Of a stretch of DNA of 64,000 bases, positions 4,785 to 55,634 are shown piece after piece. Under the pieces are notes generated by a model. The model saw only the letters and a program-made list of their open reading frames with translations. It did no database searches and was not told the origin of the DNA. The stretch is from Oscillospiraceae bacterium. GTDB taxonomy: Bacteria > Bacillota > Clostridia > Oscillospirales > Oscillospiraceae. The translations under genes were made by a program, and so were the position numbers. How positions within the stretch are numbered: position 1 is the first letter of the stretch; every line of letters begins with the position of its first letter. Where the stretch lies: positions 4,232-68,231 of the forward strand of contig JAYFRC010000034.1 in NCBI GenBank assembly GCA_034926415.1. The letters run 5' to 3'.

Positions 4785-5617
4785 AGGTCTCGGTGCTCAG
4801 CGGAAAGGGCGGCGCGGGCAAGACCTTTGTGTCTGTGAACCTTGCCGCCGCCGCGAAAAGCGCGGTCTACATCGACTGCGATGTGGAGGAGCCGAACGGC
4901 CGCCTTTACTGGAAACCAAACGTCGAGAGCAAAACGCCGGTCGACGTTTTGGTCCCTACGTTCGACGAGGAAGAGTGCAGCGGCTGCCGGAAATGCGTGA
5001 AGTTCTGCCATTTTCACGCTCTGGCTTTTGTCAGGGATCGCCCGATGGTGTTTCACGAGGTATGTCATTCCTGCGGCGGCTGCGCGCTGGTCTGCCCGGA
5101 ACATGCCGTCTCTGAAGCCCCGCGTCAGGTGGGAGCGGTTGAAGAAGGCATGAGCGGTGACGTACGGGTTGTGACCGGAATCCTCAACAACGGCGAGGTC
5201 TCGGCTGTGCCTGTCATAAAATCCGCTCTGCGTGCGGGCGGCGAAGCCGAGTTCACGGTCATCGACTGCCCTCCCGGCAGCGGATGTCCGGTAATGGAAA
5301 GCGTGAAGGCTGCGGATTGCTGCCTGCTGGTGGCCGAACCCACCGCCTTCGGCTTCCACAATTTCAAGATGGTGCATCGGTTGGCCGTGCTGCTGCAAAA
5401 GCCCTGCGGCGTGATAATCAACAAGGCGGATACGCCCTACGCGCCGCTAGAAGAATACTGCGCGGCGCAGGGCCTTCCAATTTTGATGCGTGTCCCTTAC
5501 AGCGCGCATCTGGCCGCTCTGGGCGCGGCGGGAGAAATCACCGTGCAGTATGACGCGGACCTTGCAAAAGCATTTTGCGCTCTGCTGGATGCCGTCCGAA
5601 ATGGGGCGATCCTATGA
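4781..5617 (+). CDS. MinD/ParA-superfamily P-loop ATPase with inserted 2x[4Fe-4S] ferredoxin domain
   Basis: Deviant Walker A GKGGAGKT. CSGCRKCVKFC and CHSCGGCALVCP motifs. DCPPGSGCPV. ATGA overlap with the upstream gene. Confidence 0.8.
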   Translation: MKVSVLSGKGGAGKTFVSVNLAAAAKSAVYIDCDVEEPNGRLYWKPNVESKTPVDVLVPTFDEEECSGCRKCVKFCHFHALAFVRDRPMVFHEVCHSCGGCALVCPEHAVSEAPRQVGAVEEGMSGDVRVVTGILNNGEVSAVPVIKSALRAGGEAEFTVIDCPPGSGCPVMESVKAADCCLLVAEPTAFGFHNFKMVHRLAVLLQKPCGVIINKADTPYAPLEEYCAAQGLPILMRVPYSAHLAALGAAGEITVQYDADLAKAFCALLDAVRNGAIL

Positions 5618-7861: not shown

Positions 7862-7899
7862 AAAAACCTCCGCGCGTTTTTAACGCACGGAGGTTTTTT
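7862..7899. terminator. Bidirectional intrinsic terminator
   Basis: AAAAA-CCTCCGCGCG-loop-CGCACGGAGG-TTTTTT between convergent genes (the + gene ends at 7788, the - gene ends at 7926). Confidence 0.7.
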
Positions 7900-7925
7900 C
7901 CGTATATGTACCGGGGCTACAGGGC

Positions 7926-31572: not shown

Positions 31573-31716
31573 AGCTGTTGCCCATTCCTTTCATTTTGTT
31601 CAAGTCACAAAACGACCTCAAAAAAGGATGGTCATAGTGTGAACGTTTTGCTGCCGGCGCGAAAACAGCGTGCAAAACCACCTTGAATCAAATGAGGTTT
31701 GAACTTCTTTCAAACC
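31573..31716 (-). repeat. Copy A of a 3-copy ~140-nt three-hairpin intra-operon element (pstS|pstC spacer)
   Basis: Aligns block by block with 48048-48190 and 55477-55617 (see findings). Confidence 0.8.
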
Positions 31717-31793
31717 TTTTGCCTTGCTCGCGGAACGAGCCCGGGACTCCTGCCCCGGGCGCTCTCCGCTTATATTTACTCTGATGTTTCGCT

Positions 31794-46535: not shown

Positions 46536-48047
46536 TTAAAGTCCGTCCTGAAGCTGCTTGTCCTTGCGCTTTCCGCGAAGTATGAGCACCACGGAGATTA
46601 TCGTCGCCGCCCAGAATATCCAGCAAAGCGGCGAGGAGAAGAACGTTCCGACATCTCCGCCCGACAGAACAAGCGCGCGGCGGAAATTCTTTTCAAACAA
46701 AGGCGAGAGTATGAAGCCGATAAGAACACAGGCCATGGGGAATTTGAACTTCGAGAGGATATAGCCGATGACAGCGAACACGAGCATTATCCACACGTCG
46801 GTGAGGTTGGAGTTAAGCGCGTACACGCCGATGATGCAGAACATGACGACGGCCGGGAAAATTATCGTCGTTTCAAGCGAGCATATCTTCTTGAATGCCT
46901 TCCATGTGAGAAGCACTATCGCGACGAGCACGACGTTGCAGAGTATGAGGCCGGCGTAGACATTGTAAACCGTTGCCGGAGACTCCTGGAACACCAGCGG
47001 GCCGGGGGTAAGGCCCTGAACGATGAACGCAGACATGAGCAAAGCCGCGCCGGTGTCGCCGGGAACGCCGATAGAGAGCAGAGGTATCATGTTCGCGCCG
47101 CAGACCGCGTTGTTCGCGCACTCCGCGCCCGCGACGCCCTCTATCGCGCCGTGGCCGAACTCCTCGGGATGCTTCGCGTTCTTGTGCGCGACATCGTAGC
47201 CTATGTAGCACGCAAGCGCGGGCCCGAGGCCCGGAAGCGATCCGATACCGCAGCCGAGGAACGCGGAGGTTATCCAGTGGCGGAGGCAGGTCTTTGCGTC
47301 AGCAAGAGTAAATTTGTTGTCATCCTTGCAGGTCGGCGGAGGAAGCTGAGCCTTGGTATTGCCGAGGGCGACGCTTTCGACCTGCTTGAGAACCTCGGAC
47401 AGGGCGAGGAAGCCGATGAGCATTACCACGAGGTCGATGCCGGACGAGAGCTTCAGCACGCCGAAGGTCAGACGCGGAATGGTAAACGACATGTCCATTC
47501 CGACGCAGCCGAACATCAGTCCGACACAGCCGGCGAGCAGTCCCTTTATCATGGACTTTCCGGCGGCGGAGGCAATTATCGTCAGCGCAAATATCATAAG
47601 CACCGCATACTCCGCGGGGCCGAAGTTCAGGGCGTACTTCGCTATCGGCTGAGCTACGACTATAAGGACTATGCAGCTGAACAGGCAGCCGAACGCCGAG
47701 CTGAACAGCGCCGTCTTAATAGCCTTTCCGGCTTTGCCCTGCCGAGCCAGCGCGTAGCCGTCGGCCACTGTCGCAGCGGCTGCTGGCGTGCCGGGCGTGC
47801 CGATAAGTATGGCCGCGAGCGAGCCGCCAAAGGTCCCCGCGTTATACGCGGCGAGCAGCATTACGAGCGACTGCGTGGGCGTGAGGTAATACGTCATCGG
47901 TATGACGAGCGCTATCGCCATCGTAGCGGTCAGTCCGGGTATCGCGCCGAGGACAAGTCCAAGCGCGACGCCGCCGAACAGGAAAAGGATGTTCATCGGC
48001 ATCAGCACAGCCTCGAAACCGCTGAACAGCATTGAAAGTGCTTCCAT
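46536..48047 (-). CDS. tctA: Tripartite tricarboxylate transporter large permease TctA
   Basis: About 500-aa polytopic protein with the GxxxG-rich TctA pattern. ATG at 48047 preferred (ORF track: 48059). Confidence 0.85.
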   Translation of the reverse strand: MEALSMLFSGFEAVLMPMNILFLFGGVALGLVLGAIPGLTATMAIALVIPMTYYLTPTQSLVMLLAAYNAGTFGGSLAAILIGTPGTPAAAATVADGYALARQGKAGKAIKTALFSSAFGCLFSCIVLIVVAQPIAKYALNFGPAEYAVLMIFALTIIASAAGKSMIKGLLAGCVGLMFGCVGMDMSFTIPRLTFGVLKLSSGIDLVVMLIGFLALSEVLKQVESVALGNTKAQLPPPTCKDDNKFTLADAKTCLRHWITSAFLGCGIGSLPGLGPALACYIGYDVAHKNAKHPEEFGHGAIEGVAGAECANNAVCGANMIPLLSIGVPGDTGAALLMSAFIVQGLTPGPLVFQESPATVYNVYAGLILCNVVLVAIVLLTWKAFKKICSLETTIIFPAVVMFCIIGVYALNSNLTDVWIMLVFAVIGYILSKFKFPMACVLIGFILSPLFEKNFRRALVLSGGDVGTFFSSPLCWIFWAATIISVVLILRGKRKDKQLQDGL

Positions 48048-48190
48048 TTTTATGACCATTCCTTTCTCTTTGGCAGAGTCACAAAATGACCATGAAAAGG
48101 AATGGCCATAATGTGCGTTTTTTTCGGTTGCCGCCCATGCGGCGAGAAAAATGCACTTAAATCAATTAAAGTTTGAGTTTGTTTCAAACT
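48048..48190 (-). repeat. Copy B of the three-hairpin intra-operon element (tctB|tctA spacer)
   Basis: Same block order as copies A and C. The H1 5' arm plus loop can form 15 consecutive pairs with the tctA SD region. Confidence 0.8.
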
Positions 48191-48205
48191 TTTTCTCCTT
48201 CTTTC

Positions 48206-48670
48206 TTACGGCATCCGCAGCGACAGTCCGTAGTGGAAGCTGACATAGATCAGTATCGGCAATACGACGGCCGCAATGACAATCTTTTTCCAGCTCTTCT
48301 GTCCGTAAGCCCATATCAAGAATCCGAGGGTCACGATTGTCACTGGGATGTAGGGAAGGAAGTAAAGCATTATTGTGTAAGCGACCATTACAGCCAATGT
48401 CAAAAGCACAAGTTTTGCTTCCTTCTTACCAAGCGAATACGTTTCCTGATCTGCTCTGTCCTTTTTCTTTCTTCCAAAAACGAACATGCACGCGCCTAAA
48501 ATGATGAACAATACCGCTATCGCTTCCGGGAAAAATCTCGGGGAGTTGAACAGCAGATCGCACTGGACCGCTTTTATCTGCCAAGGTATTATAACCGCCG
48601 CAAACAGCACGCCCAACACAGCAAACACGATACCGATAATCTGTTCCGCCTTGCTCTCTTTCAAGCTCAT
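48206..48670 (-). CDS. tctB: Tripartite tricarboxylate transporter small permease TctB
   Basis: 154 aa, 4 TM segments, positioned upstream of tctA. Confidence 0.65.
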   Translation of the reverse strand: MSLKESKAEQIIGIVFAVLGVLFAAVIIPWQIKAVQCDLLFNSPRFFPEAIAVLFIILGACMFVFGRKKKDRADQETYSLGKKEAKLVLLTLAVMVAYTIMLYFLPYIPVTIVTLGFLIWAYGQKSWKKIVIAAVVLPILIYVSFHYGLSLRMP

Positions 48671-49049: not shown

Positions 49050-49970
49050 ATGGGATTCAGAGAACTTGAATATGTATGTGCGCTGGCGGAAAACAAGAGC
49101 ATAACGAAAACGGCAAAGGCGCTCGGGCTCACCCAGCCGGCGCTCAGCATATTTCTTAAAAATCTCGAGGCGGAGACGGGAACCCCGCTCTTTGAGCATG
49201 TCGGGAAGTCGCTTGTGCTCACGTACGCCGGTGAGCGTTATCTCCATTACGCGCGGGAGATACTCATAATGGAAAAAACGATGGATCACGAGCTTTCGGA
49301 ACTCCAGCTCGAGGACAAAGGCTGCCTGAGCCTGACGTGCATGCTGCCGAGAAGCACGTTTATGATCCCCGAGACGATACCCGCGTTCAAGCAGCTTTAT
49401 CCGAACGTGTCGATACAGCTTTACGAGGAGGTTGCATACGACGCGATAGAGCGCAACATACTTGACGGACGCGCGTCTTTAGGAATCGTCAACTATCAGC
49501 CGAAGGATCCTCACATAACGGCGATACCGCTTCATGAGGAGGAGCTGCTGCTGACCGTAAGCGACAACCATCCGATAGCCAAAAGGATGAACGCGCATCA
49601 TGGGGACAAGCCGCGAATCATCGACCTGAACGATTTCAAAAACGATCCGCTCATAATTCCGAAAAATACGCGCACTGCTGAACAGATACAGGCGATAACG
49701 CAAAAGCGCAGGCTCGACCAGCCCGTTTTTCTTGAGACGCGGAACATCGAAATTGCGCTTCGCCTCGCCTCCGAAGGGCTTGGAATCACCTTTCTCTGTG
49801 ACAGTCACATAAATTTCAAATACCTGCCCGACAACCTCGTATTCTTTTCGACCGCCGACCCCGACGCCAAAATGATGCTCTATCTCCTGTACCGCACTAA
49901 TTCCTACATGCCTTCGTATATCCAGAAATACATCGAAATGCTCAAGGATTACGCCTGCGGAAACCTGTAA
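49050..49970 (+). CDS. LysR-family transcriptional regulator
   Basis: N-terminal HTH (LEYVCALAENKSITKTAKALGLTQPALS), 306 aa. Divergent from the tct/BKACE operon. Confidence 0.9.
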   Translation: MGFRELEYVCALAENKSITKTAKALGLTQPALSIFLKNLEAETGTPLFEHVGKSLVLTYAGERYLHYAREILIMEKTMDHELSELQLEDKGCLSLTCMLPRSTFMIPETIPAFKQLYPNVSIQLYEEVAYDAIERNILDGRASLGIVNYQPKDPHITAIPLHEEELLLTVSDNHPIAKRMNAHHGDKPRIIDLNDFKNDPLIIPKNTRTAEQIQAITQKRRLDQPVFLETRNIEIALRLASEGLGITFLCDSHINFKYLPDNLVFFSTADPDAKMMLYLLYRTNSYMPSYIQKYIEMLKDYACGNL

Positions 49971-55476: not shown

Positions 55477-55617
55477 AAATATGACCGTGCCTTTCGCTTC
55501 GCTCAAGGTTCAAAATGACCATTAAAAGGGATGGTCATAATGTGTATATTTTCTGTCGCCGCGCAAGCGGCAAAAATGCGTAATTGAATCAAATAAAGTC
55601 TGAACCTGTTTCAAACT
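55477..55617 (-). repeat. Copy C of the three-hairpin intra-operon element (sensor kinase|htrA spacer)
   Basis: Same block order as copies A and B. Perfect 8-bp H1 (AUGACCAU/AUGGUCAU). Confidence 0.8.
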
Positions 55618-55634
55618 TCTCCGTCTTCGCGGTT

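What the first reader, a model, noticed from the sequence alone, without database searches (positions are those of the whole stretch)
48048..48190. Copy B of the three-hairpin element: strongest anti-SD:SD complementarity (tctB|tctA)
Minus-strand reading: AGUUUGA-AACAAAC-UCAAACU, then UUAAUUGAUUUAA. Next is GUGCAUUUUUCUC-GCCGC-AUGG-GCGGC-AACCGAAAAAAACGCAC. Then AUU-AUGGCCAU-UCCUUUUC-AUGGUCAU-UUUGUGACUCUGCCAAAGA, then GAAAGGAAUGGUCAU-AAAA-AUG (tctA). AUGGCCAUUCCUUUU can pair with GAAAGGAAUGGUCAU over 15 contiguous positions. It can alternatively form the local 8-bp H1 with AUGGUCAU, extended by CACA/UGUG. The SD-region sequence is thus a duplicate of the H1 3' arm. This is the layout expected for a switch between SD-sequestered and SD-free states. 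It would set the TctB:TctA ratio or respond to a trans factor.
Basis: seen in the sequence. Interest (0 to 1): 0.6.

Follow-up and report, generated by a model that had tools for sequence, protein, structure and literature searches.

The report
Mobile element that replaces ribosome-binding sites
The structured 142-base spacer between tctB and tctA is not a tct-specific switch but one copy of a small mobile DNA element, found in uncultured Oscillospiraceae-type bacteria, that lands between a gene's ribosome-binding site and its start codon and brings a replacement site that can fold away on itself.

Summary
All the quoted hairpins are at 48050-48191 (minus strand). The anti-SD:SD helix is 15 contiguous pairs, and 17 with the flanking UU/AA. 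It excludes the local hairpin H1.

I recovered 86 copies of a ~142-nt repeat in 20 Oscillospiraceae/Clostridiales MAGs, plus three in this window. Nearly all lie in one orientation, and about 77% have ATG exactly 4 nt after GGTCAT, in front of unrelated genes. A displaced native SD lies just upstream of most copies.

Five orthologous tctB|tctA junctions (TctB 62-75% identical) are only 14-41 nt long, each with its own SD. Only the >=94% lineage carries the element, so it was inserted between the native SD (AAGGAG, 48195-48200) and the ATG (48047).

The element has no outer inverted repeats, no detectable target duplication, no conserved ORF and no Rfam match. Hairpins 1 and 2 covary strongly. 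The SD-sequestering fold is favoured in 54 of 64 copies, and most strongly in copy B (-9.1 kcal/mol).

Whether this damps translation or serves transposition is untested. The closest known behaviour is IS900-type IS110 elements, which target translation-initiation signals. No transposase partner was found.

The parts
48050..48191 (-). Copy B of the ~142-nt SD-to-ATG-spacer element (AAGTTTGAAAC ... GAAAGGAATGGTCATAA)
   Evidence: A family profile built without the window copies matches 48191-48051 at 119 bits. Copy B is 86% identical to the family consensus, against 73% for copy A and 79% for copy C. Information content rises sharply at AAG and falls after CATAA.
48195..48200 (-). Displaced native tctA Shine-Dalgarno (AAGGAG), now about 150 nt from the ATG
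   Evidence: Sequence. Empty orthologous junctions have AGGAGG, AAGGAG or AAGGTGG 6-10 nt before the same ATG. A GGAG/GAGG core lies within 16 nt upstream of the element in 41 of 64 copies, against 5 of 64 in a control window.
48169..48191 (-). Hairpin P1 (AAGUUUGA-loop-UCAAACUU); the element's 5' end is its 5' arm
   Evidence: Present in the MFE fold. Across 64 copies 87.7% of cells are paired and 7 of 9 pairs show changes on both sides. The termite subfamily has TAGTATGAA/TTCATACTA.
48113..48156 (-). Hairpin P2, three stacked helices (GUGC/GCAC, UUUUUC/GAAAAA, GCCGC/GCGGC); not a terminator
   Evidence: 86%, 92% and 90% of cells are paired, with many compensatory changes such as UA to GC in 20-22 copies and GC to CG in 19. 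The termite subfamily replaces the whole sequence but keeps the hairpin. No terminator-like site was found.
48086..48109 (-). Local hairpin H1 (AUGGCCAU-UCCUUUUC-AUGGUCAU); its loop carries the anti-SD UCCUUU
   Evidence: 98.4% of cells are paired, and variation is almost only to G.U (52 G.U against 4 A.C cells). This figure is partly biased by my search pattern. RNAalifold keeps this helix.
48095..48111 (-). 5' arm of the long helix P4 (UUAUGGCCAUUCCUUUU), the anti-SD arm; overlaps the H1 5' arm and loop
   Evidence: Pairs 17 of 17 with 48050-48066 in copy B. 95.2% of cells are paired across the family.
48050..48066 (-). 3' arm of P4, which is also the element's 3' end (GAAAGGAAUGGUCAUAA); contains the replacement SD GAAAGGA (48060-48066)
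   Evidence: At least 90% conserved at most positions, although it was not part of the search pattern. Kept even in 5'-truncated relics.
48045..48049 (-). Two flanking bases (AA) plus the tctA start codon ATG (48045-48047)
   Evidence: ATG lies exactly 4 nt after GGTCAT in 67 of about 87 copies and 2-5 nt after it in 12 more. The ATGGAAGC start is conserved in empty orthologues.
46536..48047 (-). tctA (503 aa)
   Evidence: Pfam TctA, E = 9e-141.
48206..48670 (-). tctB (154 aa)
   Evidence: Pfam TctB, E = 6e-22.
31576..31717 (-). Copy A of the same element (phosphate-binding protein gene | ABC permease gene), decayed
   Evidence: 86 bits. H1 is favoured and the long helix is reduced to 12 pairs.
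55479..55618 (-). Copy C of the same element (histidine kinase gene | htrA), decayed
   Evidence: 85 bits. The long helix has 14 pairs and H1 is slightly favoured.

Best explanation
Window 48050-48191 (minus strand) is one copy of a ~142-nt non-coding mobile, or formerly mobile, DNA element of Oscillospiraceae/Clostridiales-type bacteria.

Shown:
- The element integrates in one orientation into the few bases between a gene's Shine-Dalgarno sequence and its start codon. Its last conserved base lies about 2 nt before the ATG.
- At this site it separated tctA from its native SD (AAGGAG, 48195-48200) by about 150 nt.
- Its 3' end supplies a substitute SD (GAAAGGA, 48060-48066).
- It is very probably transcribed through as part of the tctB-tctA mRNA.

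Inferred:
- tctA is now translated from the element's SD.
- As RNA the element can adopt two exclusive folds. The local hairpin H1 can form first during transcription and leaves the SD free. The 17-bp helix between the anti-SD arm and the SD-bearing 3' end is 9 kcal/mol more stable in copy B and buries the SD.
- The likely consequence is a damped or time-limited translation of tctA relative to tctB, as a side-effect of the element's design rather than a tct-specific adaptation.
- The enzyme that moves the element is unknown. The absence of outer inverted repeats and target duplications, the strict orientation and the site preference point to a site-specific recombinase of the IS110/IS1111 (IS900-like) kind or another non-DDE system acting in trans.
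For: Family and position:
- Three copies lie in the window between unrelated gene pairs.
- 86 profile-confirmed copies were found in 20 assemblies, all Oscillospiraceae/Clostridiales/Eubacteriales MAGs.
- ATG lies exactly 4 nt after GGTCAT in 67 of about 87 copies, followed by long unrelated ORFs.
- Flanks are unrelated on both sides and conservation has sharp edges.
- A native-type SD lies within 16 nt upstream in 55 of 64 copies, against 13 of 64 in a control window.

Insertion at this site:
- Junctions are empty in L113 (TctA 85% identical), L115, L120, L121/L122 and L123 (TctB 62-75% identical). They are 14-41 nt long, each with its own SD and the same ATGGAAGC start.
- Junctions are filled only in the 94-100% lineage and in relatives about 93% identical at the DNA level.

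Independent insertions: the pst operon has the element at different gene starts in the window and in L030.

Reliance on the element's SD: 5'-truncated relics always keep the SD end next to the ATG, and 3'-truncated copies are almost absent.

Structure:
- Covariation supports P1 and P2.
- The long helix is favoured in 54 of 64 copies, with a median of -5.8 kcal/mol. In copy B the values are -50.3 against -41.2.

Transcription: a metatranscriptome contig spans tctA, the element and tctB without a joint, and there is no promoter or terminator pattern.

Multi-copy nature: assembly word depth jumps from about 7 to 50-127 inside the element in rumen metagenomes.

Precedent:
- IS900 'targets translation initiation signals' (Doran 1997, title cited in PMC8141618).
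- Mini-IS110/IS1111 constructs move with transposase and seekRNA supplied in trans (PMC11187229).
Against: - No recent presence/absence polymorphism was found at this site or at a rumen site, so current mobility is not shown.
- No autonomous parent or transposase was found in the fetched DNA. There were no hits on plasmids, phages or viral contigs.
- The copies were collected with a pattern inside the anti-SD arm and H1, so conservation of those two segments, and part of the G.U excess, is ascertainment bias.
- The long helix shows true compensation in only 1-2 copies per position, and 10 uncompensated C.A mismatches at one pair. RNAalifold's own consensus keeps H1 rather than the long helix. 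RNA-level selection for SD sequestration is therefore unproven.
- The SD-to-ATG distance (GGA, then 12 nt, then ATG) is long if only AGGA is counted.
- The RNA contig could derive from contaminating DNA and carries no strand information.
Confidence: 0.8

Rival explanations
1. The element is mobile as described, but its helices, including the 17-bp anti-SD:SD complementarity, serve only DNA-level mobility. They would act as recognition or guide segments that pair with the element's own ends in single-stranded DNA or in a guide RNA. Under this reading the effect on tctA translation is incidental and small.
For: - Both termini of the element are complementary to internal segments: the 5' end within P1 and the 3' end within P4.
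- P1, P2 and P4 show no G.U over A.C excess once the consensus terminal U.G pair of P4 is set aside, so selection is not visibly strand-specific.
- The P4 arms are conserved in sequence rather than by compensation.
- Older copies A and C have lost the long helix while keeping the SD.
- seekRNA and bridge-RNA systems of IS110/IS1111 use such internal complements (PMC11187229; otherwise my own knowledge).
Against: - The H1 core varies almost only to G.U (52 against 4), which fits sense-strand or RNA selection, although this is partly ascertainment bias.
- The element is transcribed within operons, so a helix of about -25 kcal/mol over the only SD can hardly be without effect.
- The outermost P4 pair covaries between subfamilies (UU..AA against AA..U), which either reading explains.
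Confidence: 0.35
2. The three-hairpin spacer is a dedicated translational switch of the tct operon that sets the TctB:TctA ratio or senses a trans factor.
For: The bistable layout is real and is strongest in copy B. Copy B is the best-preserved copy in the window.
Against: The same sequence precedes unrelated genes in 20 genomes. Five orthologous tct operons lack it. There is no Rfam family and no conserved ligand-pocket-like unpaired core.
Confidence: 0.05
3. This rival applies to copy B only. Ribosomes would start at the TTG (48187) 6 nt after the stranded native SD, translate a 45-codon frame through the whole element, melting all helices, and stop at TAA (48050-48052) 2 nt before the tctA ATG. 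tctA would then be made by termination-reinitiation coupling.
For: ORF 48050-48187 is listed. The geometry is native SD, 6 nt, then TTG, with the stop 2 nt before the ATG. The frame is intact in the 94% relatives.
Against: The frame is not a family feature. The TTG frame reaches the gene start region in only 3 of 64 copies, and no frame is open in most copies. The TTG lies inside the P1 stem. The relatives differ by only 3 substitutions, so preservation of the frame there is uninformative.
Confidence: 0.1
4. The family is a dispersed cis-regulatory RNA (a regulon leader) bound by a common protein or small RNA. It would have spread because it confers coordinated control, and mobility would be secondary.
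For: There is strong structural covariation in P1 and P2 with free sequence replacement in a subfamily. Orientation is always sense to the downstream gene.
Against: Downstream genes have no common function. Copies decay in place to bare SD relics. Head-to-tail relic-plus-full-copy junctions indicate repeated insertion rather than regulation. No candidate factor was identified.
Confidence: 0.1

Closest known systems
IS900 / IS901 / IS902-type insertion sequences (IS110 family, DEDD recombinase)
   Same: They insert in one orientation between the ribosome-binding site and the start codon of host genes. Doran et al. 1997 is titled 'IS900 targets translation initiation signals' (cited in PMC8141618). 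The family has no terminal inverted repeats and usually no target duplication, as observed here. Mini-derivatives with intact ends can be moved in trans (PMC11187229).
   Different: The known elements are 1.4-1.5-kb autonomous elements of Actinobacteria that encode their recombinase. This one is 142 nt, has no ORF, occurs in Clostridia, and carries a replacement SD for the host gene. No DEDD gene with matching ends was found, and no bridge-RNA or seekRNA family matched. Membership is therefore untested, and only the behaviour is alike.
ERIC/IRU and Correia (NEMIS) elements: transcribed intra-operon MITEs of enterobacteria, Yersinia and Neisseria
   Same: They are about 120-160 nt, non-coding and multi-copy. 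They are co-transcribed with flanking genes and fold into long hairpins that alter mRNA processing or expression (review PMC10969869).
   Different: Those elements have terminal inverted repeats and TA-type duplications, occur in both orientations, and lie anywhere in intergenic DNA. This element has no outer TIR or TSD, a single orientation and a fixed position before the ATG. The 2024 MITE review does not mention ribosome-binding sites, Shine-Dalgarno sequences or start codons at all.
Anti-SD hairpins of translational riboregulators (RNA thermometers, expression platforms of translational riboswitches)
   Same: An internal CCUUU-type anti-SD pairs with the SD, and an alternative upstream helix frees it.
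   Different: There is no sensor domain, no Rfam match and no gene-family specificity. The helix is 17 bp, far too stable for a thermometer.
IS200/IS605-derived palindrome-associated elements (PATEs) and REP/RAYT repeats
   Same: They are small, hairpin-rich and TIR-less, leave no target duplication, are strand-specific and can form head-to-tail arrays.
   Different: Those insert 3' of a fixed tetra- or pentanucleotide and carry similar hairpins at both ends. Here the flanks share no fixed word and the two end hairpins are unrelated.

Membership tests
Classical MITE (cut-and-paste, DDE-derived) | Terminal inverted repeats at the outer ends | tested here: not met
   The 5' end AAGTTTGAA and the reverse complement of the 3' end (TTATGACCATT) are unrelated. 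The 17-nt inverted repeat is internal-to-terminal, not terminal-to-terminal.
Classical MITE (cut-and-paste, DDE-derived) | Target-site duplication flanking each copy | tested here: not met
   I scanned systematically for k = 2-5 at all offsets around both junctions in 64 copies. No excess over shuffles was found (best case 8 against 5.5).
Classical MITE (cut-and-paste, DDE-derived) | Short, non-coding, multi-copy, with empty sites in relatives | tested here: met
   The element is 142 nt. 86 copies lie in 20 assemblies. No ORF is conserved. Empty orthologous sites exist.
IS110/IS1111 family (as a miniature, non-autonomous derivative) | DEDD recombinase gene (PF01548/PF02371) in a full-length relative with the same ends | tested here: inconclusive
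   No ORF with GIDVSK and PGIG motifs occurs in the window or in about 0.8 Mb of fetched loci, and there are no orphan element ends.
IS110/IS1111 family (as a miniature, non-autonomous derivative) | Orientation-specific insertion at a defined target, without TIR or TSD | tested here: met
   All copies are sense to the downstream gene. ATG lies 4 nt after GGTCAT in 67 of about 87 copies. There is no TIR or TSD.
IS110/IS1111 family (as a miniature, non-autonomous derivative) | Bridge/seekRNA with loops complementary to target flanks and to the element's ends | tested here: inconclusive
   Internal segments are complementary to both termini (P1 and P4). However, target flanks share only an SD at variable distance and an ATG, and no Rfam model matched.
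Known cis-regulatory RNA family (Rfam 15) | Match to a curated covariance model | tested here: not met
   There were no matches at gathering score in the whole window. Only noise (E = 0.085 and 2.6, far below gathering scores) appeared at E <= 10 on 47900-48350.
ERIC/IRU | 127-nt consensus with imperfect terminal palindrome, enterobacterial hosts | tested here: not met
   The hosts are Clostridia. The termini are not palindromic to each other. No sequence family match was found. I did not make a direct alignment to the ERIC consensus.
Intrinsic terminator / promoter cassette | GC hairpin followed by a U-run, or -35/-10 hexamers | tested here: not met
   No promoter-like and no terminator-like site was found in 47950-48300 on either strand. 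P2 has the T-run upstream and the A-run downstream, and these pair with each other.

The most novel reading that the evidence does not exclude
The element would be a self-guided miniature mobile element that homes to translation-initiation regions. Its internal 17-nt segment (UUAUGACCAUUCCUUUY) is complementary to its own right end. That end looks like a compressed initiation site (AAAGGA followed directly by AUG). The segment would act as a guide, like a bridge RNA or seekRNA or a single-strand guide, for a trans-acting recombinase. This would explain why copies land about 2 nt before ATGs behind an SD. Once inserted, the same complementarity would work as a portable RBS-plus-attenuator, so that a selfish element rewires the translation efficiency of dozens of genes per genome. 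Similar start-codon-seeking mini-elements noted elsewhere in this scan (Bacteroidales, Omnitrophota, other Clostridia) would then form a broad, undescribed class.
Probability: 0.2. Interest if true: 0.85.

Novelty: new variant of a known kind. Interest (0 to 1): 0.65.

Why it matters
If the element really targets the SD-to-ATG spacer and substitutes its own self-pairing SD, it is a mobile element whose insertions are tolerated because they rebuild the initiation site they disrupt. They would also change translation efficiency gene by gene.

- **Annotation.** Gene callers already misplace the tctA start in filled alleles. 'Conserved leaders' in front of unrelated genes can be mistaken for regulons or riboswitches.
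- **Evolution of translation signals.** Relics show that host RBSs are permanently replaced by element-derived ones.
- **Mobile-element biology.** This would be a non-autonomous counterpart of the IS900-type preference for initiation signals, in a different phylum and with a possible guide-like internal complement.
- **Tools.** A site-specific, orientation-specific, cargo-free insertion module with a built-in tunable RBS would be of practical interest.

Tried and rejected
I therefore have no census of the window's own genome, no replication-strand analysis and no genome-wide search for a transposase partner.

Searches that found nothing:
- Rfam at gathering and permissive thresholds gave nothing.
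- Plasmid, phage (blastn, distant mode) and viral-contig pattern searches found no match.
- I looked for presence/absence polymorphism in public runs. At tctB|tctA the element is present in the identical strain and in relatives about 93% identical, with no skipping joint. At a rumen site (L053) contigs simply break in the repeat.
- An exact-protein look-up of the window's TctB was not on record.
- A search of the fetched loci for orphan 5' hairpins or split ends flanking a gene found none.
- An IS110 motif scan of six-frame ORFs found none.
- Literature searches for MITEs at SD or start-codon positions found no description. The 2024 MITE review lacks the terms altogether.

Ideas rejected:
- A conserved small ORF or leader peptide: the frame from the 5'-arm ATG ends after 11 codons in 25 copies and varies otherwise. 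The TTG frame is not conserved.
- A target-site duplication, including 'AA': there is no excess over shuffles. The terminal dinucleotides instead belong to helices P1 and P4 and covary by subfamily.
- A promoter or terminator role.

A caveat I had to accept:
- I first read the G.U against A.C asymmetry as strong evidence for RNA-level selection on H1. I then realised that my search pattern fixed one partner in two of the three variable pairs. Only the T2:A7 pair (23 U.G against at most 2 others) is unbiased.

Full report
**1. The observation**

The features, in order, are:
- The tctB stop (TAA, 48206-48208).
- GAAAGAAGGAGAAA, which contains a good SD (AAGGAG, 48195-48200).
- Hairpin P1 (48169-48191).
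- A 12-nt linker.
- The composite hairpin P2 (48113-48156).
- AUU.
- H1 (AUGGCCAU-UCCUUUUC-AUGGUCAU, 48086-48109).
- UUUGUGACUCUGCCAAAGA.
- GAAAGGAAUGGUCAUAA (48050-48066).
- AA, then the tctA AUG (48047).

AUGGCCAUUCCUUUU pairs with GAAAGGAAUGGUCAU over 15 contiguous positions. With the neighbouring UU and AA the helix has 17 pairs. The 166-nt spacer folds to -52.1 kcal/mol (shuffles -32.7 +/- 3.9, z = -5.0), and the MFE contains the long helix. Pfam confirms TctB and TctA on either side.

**2. It is a repeat, not a tct leader**

The window holds three copies, all on the minus strand. Each lies between co-directional genes of a different kind:
- A phosphate-binding-protein gene and an ABC permease gene (copy A).
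- tctB and tctA (copy B).
- A histidine-kinase gene and htrA (copy C).

A degenerate core pattern scanned over one genome per prokaryotic species gave 112 loci. A profile built from the three window copies confirmed 86 copies in 20 assemblies. All of these are Oscillospiraceae, Clostridiales, Eubacteriales or Limivicinus MAGs from rumen, termite gut, other guts and bioreactors. The 33 loci with no profile hit include all the pattern matches outside Clostridia, plus three Clostridia-type loci (L032, L049, L061). Two MAGs hold 24 and 19 copies even under my strict pattern. The window's own genome was not among the loci. Runs holding its sequence come from groundwater, bioreactor, sludge and digester metagenomes.

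**3. Position and boundaries**

The 5' flanks are unrelated. The conserved element runs from AAGTTTGAAAC to GAAAGGAATGGTCATAA. Two variable bases, an ATG and unrelated coding sequence follow it.
- ATG lies exactly 4 nt after GGTCAT in 67 of about 87 copies and 2-5 nt after it in 12 more. It almost always opens a long ORF.
- Information content jumps at AAG and drops after CATAA.
- Within 16 nt upstream of the element, 55 of 64 copies have an SD-like tetramer (control 13 of 64), and 41 have GGAG or GAGG (control 5).

The element therefore lies between a native SD and the start codon. There are no outer inverted repeats and no target duplication above shuffles. The terminal dinucleotides belong to helices. 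The 5' AA pairs within P1 and the 3' AA pairs with the UU before AUGACC. A termite-gut subfamily has UA...UA in P1, and AA before AUGACC with U after GGUCAU.

**4. Insertion at tctB|tctA**

Relatives were found through metagenome contigs and the protein collection. Their junctions read as follows:

| Locus | Junction between tctB stop and tctA ATG |
|---|---|
| L113 (TctA 85% identical) | TAA-aggaggggaacgcaaaca-ATG |
| L115 | TAA-aggagtgagtatta-ATG |
| L120 | 34 nt ending AAGGAGGTAAAAC-ATG |
| L121/L122 | 26 nt containing AGAAGGAGG |
| L123 | 41 nt containing AAGGTGG |

All of them start tctA at the conserved ATGGAAGC/ATGGATGC. Only the 94-100% TctB lineage (L114, L117-L119) has the 142-nt element, with three substitutions. 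Contigs of relatives about 93% identical at the DNA level also run through it. The element therefore entered after the split from the 75% lineage. It stranded the native SD about 150 nt from the ATG.

**5. Further signs of mobility and of reliance on the element's SD**

- In the pst operon the window carries the element before the permease gene. MAG CAYQMY01 carries a full copy two genes further on, where the window is empty.
- At the permease junction that MAG keeps only ...aaaaaggaatggtcatatat|ATG, the last ~16 nt of an element.
- Other 5'-truncated relics likewise keep the SD end flush with the ATG. The only two copies lacking the 3' end are one interrupted by another repeat and one cut by the end of its locus.
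- Two loci show a relic followed head-to-tail by a full copy (GGTCAT|AAGTTTG and GGTCAT|TAGTTTG), which means re-insertion at an element-derived RBS.
- In rumen metagenomes, contigs break inside the element, and word depth rises from about 7 to 50-127.
- I found no recent empty allele, no plasmid, phage or viral copy and no parent element or IS110-type ORF in the fetched DNA.

**6. Structure across the family** (64 full-length copies, alignment A2)

| Helix | Cells paired | Variation |
|---|---|---|
| P1 | 88% | changes on both sides in 7 of 9 pairs |
| P2 outer / middle / inner | 86% / 92% / 90% | abundant compensation (UA to GC in 20-22 copies, GC to CG in 19) |
| H1 core | 98% | almost only to G.U (52 G.U against 4 A.C cells) |
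| Long helix P4 | 95% | both arms nearly invariant; genuine compensation in 1-2 copies per position; 10 uncompensated mismatches at one pair |

- The termite subfamily replaces the whole P2 sequence but keeps a hairpin.
- My search pattern fixed one partner of two of the three variable H1 pairs, so only one pair (23 U.G) is an unbiased witness for the G.U excess.
- P1, P2 and P4 show no strand asymmetry.
- RNAalifold on its own keeps P2 and H1.
- Constrained folding favours the SD-sequestered state in 54 of 64 copies (median -5.8 kcal/mol). In copy B the values are -50.3 against -41.2 kcal/mol. Window copies A and C have decayed towards H1.
- The central GCAC (48113-48116) can close either P2 or the outer stem of H1, which is a second pair of exclusive helices.

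**7. Transcription and other roles**

- There is no promoter-like or terminator-like pattern. The T-run and A-run flanking P2 pair with each other, so P2 is not a terminator.
- A 420-nt contig of an anaerobic-digester metatranscriptome (about 97% identical) runs from tctA through the element into tctB without a joint. This is consistent with read-through transcription, though DNA carry-over cannot be excluded.
- No small ORF is conserved.
- Copy B alone has a 45-codon frame from a TTG 6 nt after the stranded SD to a TAA 2 nt before the tctA ATG. I keep it as a minor rival.

**8. How it most likely works**

Shown: an orientation-specific insertion between SD and ATG, a displaced native SD, a conserved SD-bearing 3' end, and two exclusive folds with the sequestered one more stable.

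Inferred:
- tctA now initiates from GAAAGGA. This sequence is complementary to the UCCUUUC of the Firmicute-type 16S 3' tail (my own knowledge). Its aligned spacing is about 10 nt.
- H1 can form first during transcription and leaves the SD open. Refolding to the long helix would later close it, so tctA output is probably lowered or time-limited relative to tctB.
- The alternative is that the complementarity exists for mobility, as a guide-like pairing with the element's own end, and that its RNA effect is incidental. The data do not separate these two readings.

**9. Comparison with what is known**

- The behaviour matches IS900-type IS110 elements, which target translation-initiation signals in one orientation without TIR or TSD (Doran 1997, cited in PMC8141618). 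Mini-IS110/IS1111 constructs can be moved in trans (PMC11187229).
- Membership is unproven, because there is no recombinase partner, no bridge-RNA match and a different phylum.
- The element resembles ERIC and Correia elements in being a transcribed, hairpin-forming intra-operon repeat, but it fails the TIR and TSD tests.
- The 2024 review of prokaryotic MITEs does not mention ribosome-binding sites or start codons.
- Earlier notes of this scan reached the same reading for copy A, and they describe analogous start-seeking mini-elements in other phyla. I used these as leads and re-derived the evidence independently here.

**10. Verdict**

The feature is a copy of a start-site-homing, RBS-replacing mini-element, which is a new variant of known kinds (IS900-like targeting, MITE-like size). 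Interest is 0.65. The mobilising enzyme and the RNA-level consequence remain open.

Noticed in passing
L034 (~oriented 1796), L074, L111, L054 (~6506): A second, unrelated repeat in MAG CAYQMY01 (GCGCAGGGAATACTTTGTGTATTTCCGAGCATTTTTGGACGATTTGG..., ending ...CGGTGTTGCCTTAAGG) has interrupted or replaced the 5' part of several copies of the SD-homing element. It is probably another mobile family.
   Followed up: no
L117:1240, L118:1017, L119:761: In alleles that carry the element, the gene caller of the source collection places the tctA start 15 nt downstream of the conserved ATGGAAGC start used in all empty orthologues. The unusual RBS evidently misleads start prediction.
   Followed up: partly
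window 48050-48187 (-): A 45-codon ORF runs from a TTG 6 nt after the stranded native SD to a TAA 2 nt before the tctA ATG, spanning the whole element. The frame is not conserved in the family (3 of 64 copies).
   Followed up: yes
L030:~1650-1673; L063:~5485-5528; L054:~1487-1529: These are relic footprints. Only the last 16-45 nt of the element (AAAGGAATGGTCAT + NN(NN) + ATG) remain and serve as the gene's RBS. L030's relic sits at the orthologue of the window's copy A site.
   Followed up: partly
L054:~7888-7910; L105:~4920-4940: Head-to-tail junctions of a relic 3' end with a full copy (GGTCAT|AAGTTTG and GGTCAT|TAGTTTG). Only one terminal dinucleotide lies between the two units.
   Followed up: partly
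window 48113-48116 with 48153-48156 or 48080-48083: The central GCAC can close either hairpin P2 (with GUGC) or the outer stem of H1 (with GUG). Both alternatives persist, with shifted registers, in the GGCA/UGCC subfamily. This is a second pair of mutually exclusive helices.
   Followed up: partly
window copy C 55479-55618 and the WQWL01 loci (L003, L052, L105): A subfamily has AUCCC in the anti-SD arm and GGCA(U/C) in the SD arm. This gives a central C.C mismatch in the long helix, so both sides changed without restoring a pair. It may be a weakened-helix variant.
   Followed up: no
L117, L120, L123 (upstream of tctB); window ~49050-49970 (+): A divergent LysR-type regulator gene precedes tctB in all relatives, as in the window. 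The operon's transcriptional control is therefore conserved whether or not the element is present.
   Followed up: no
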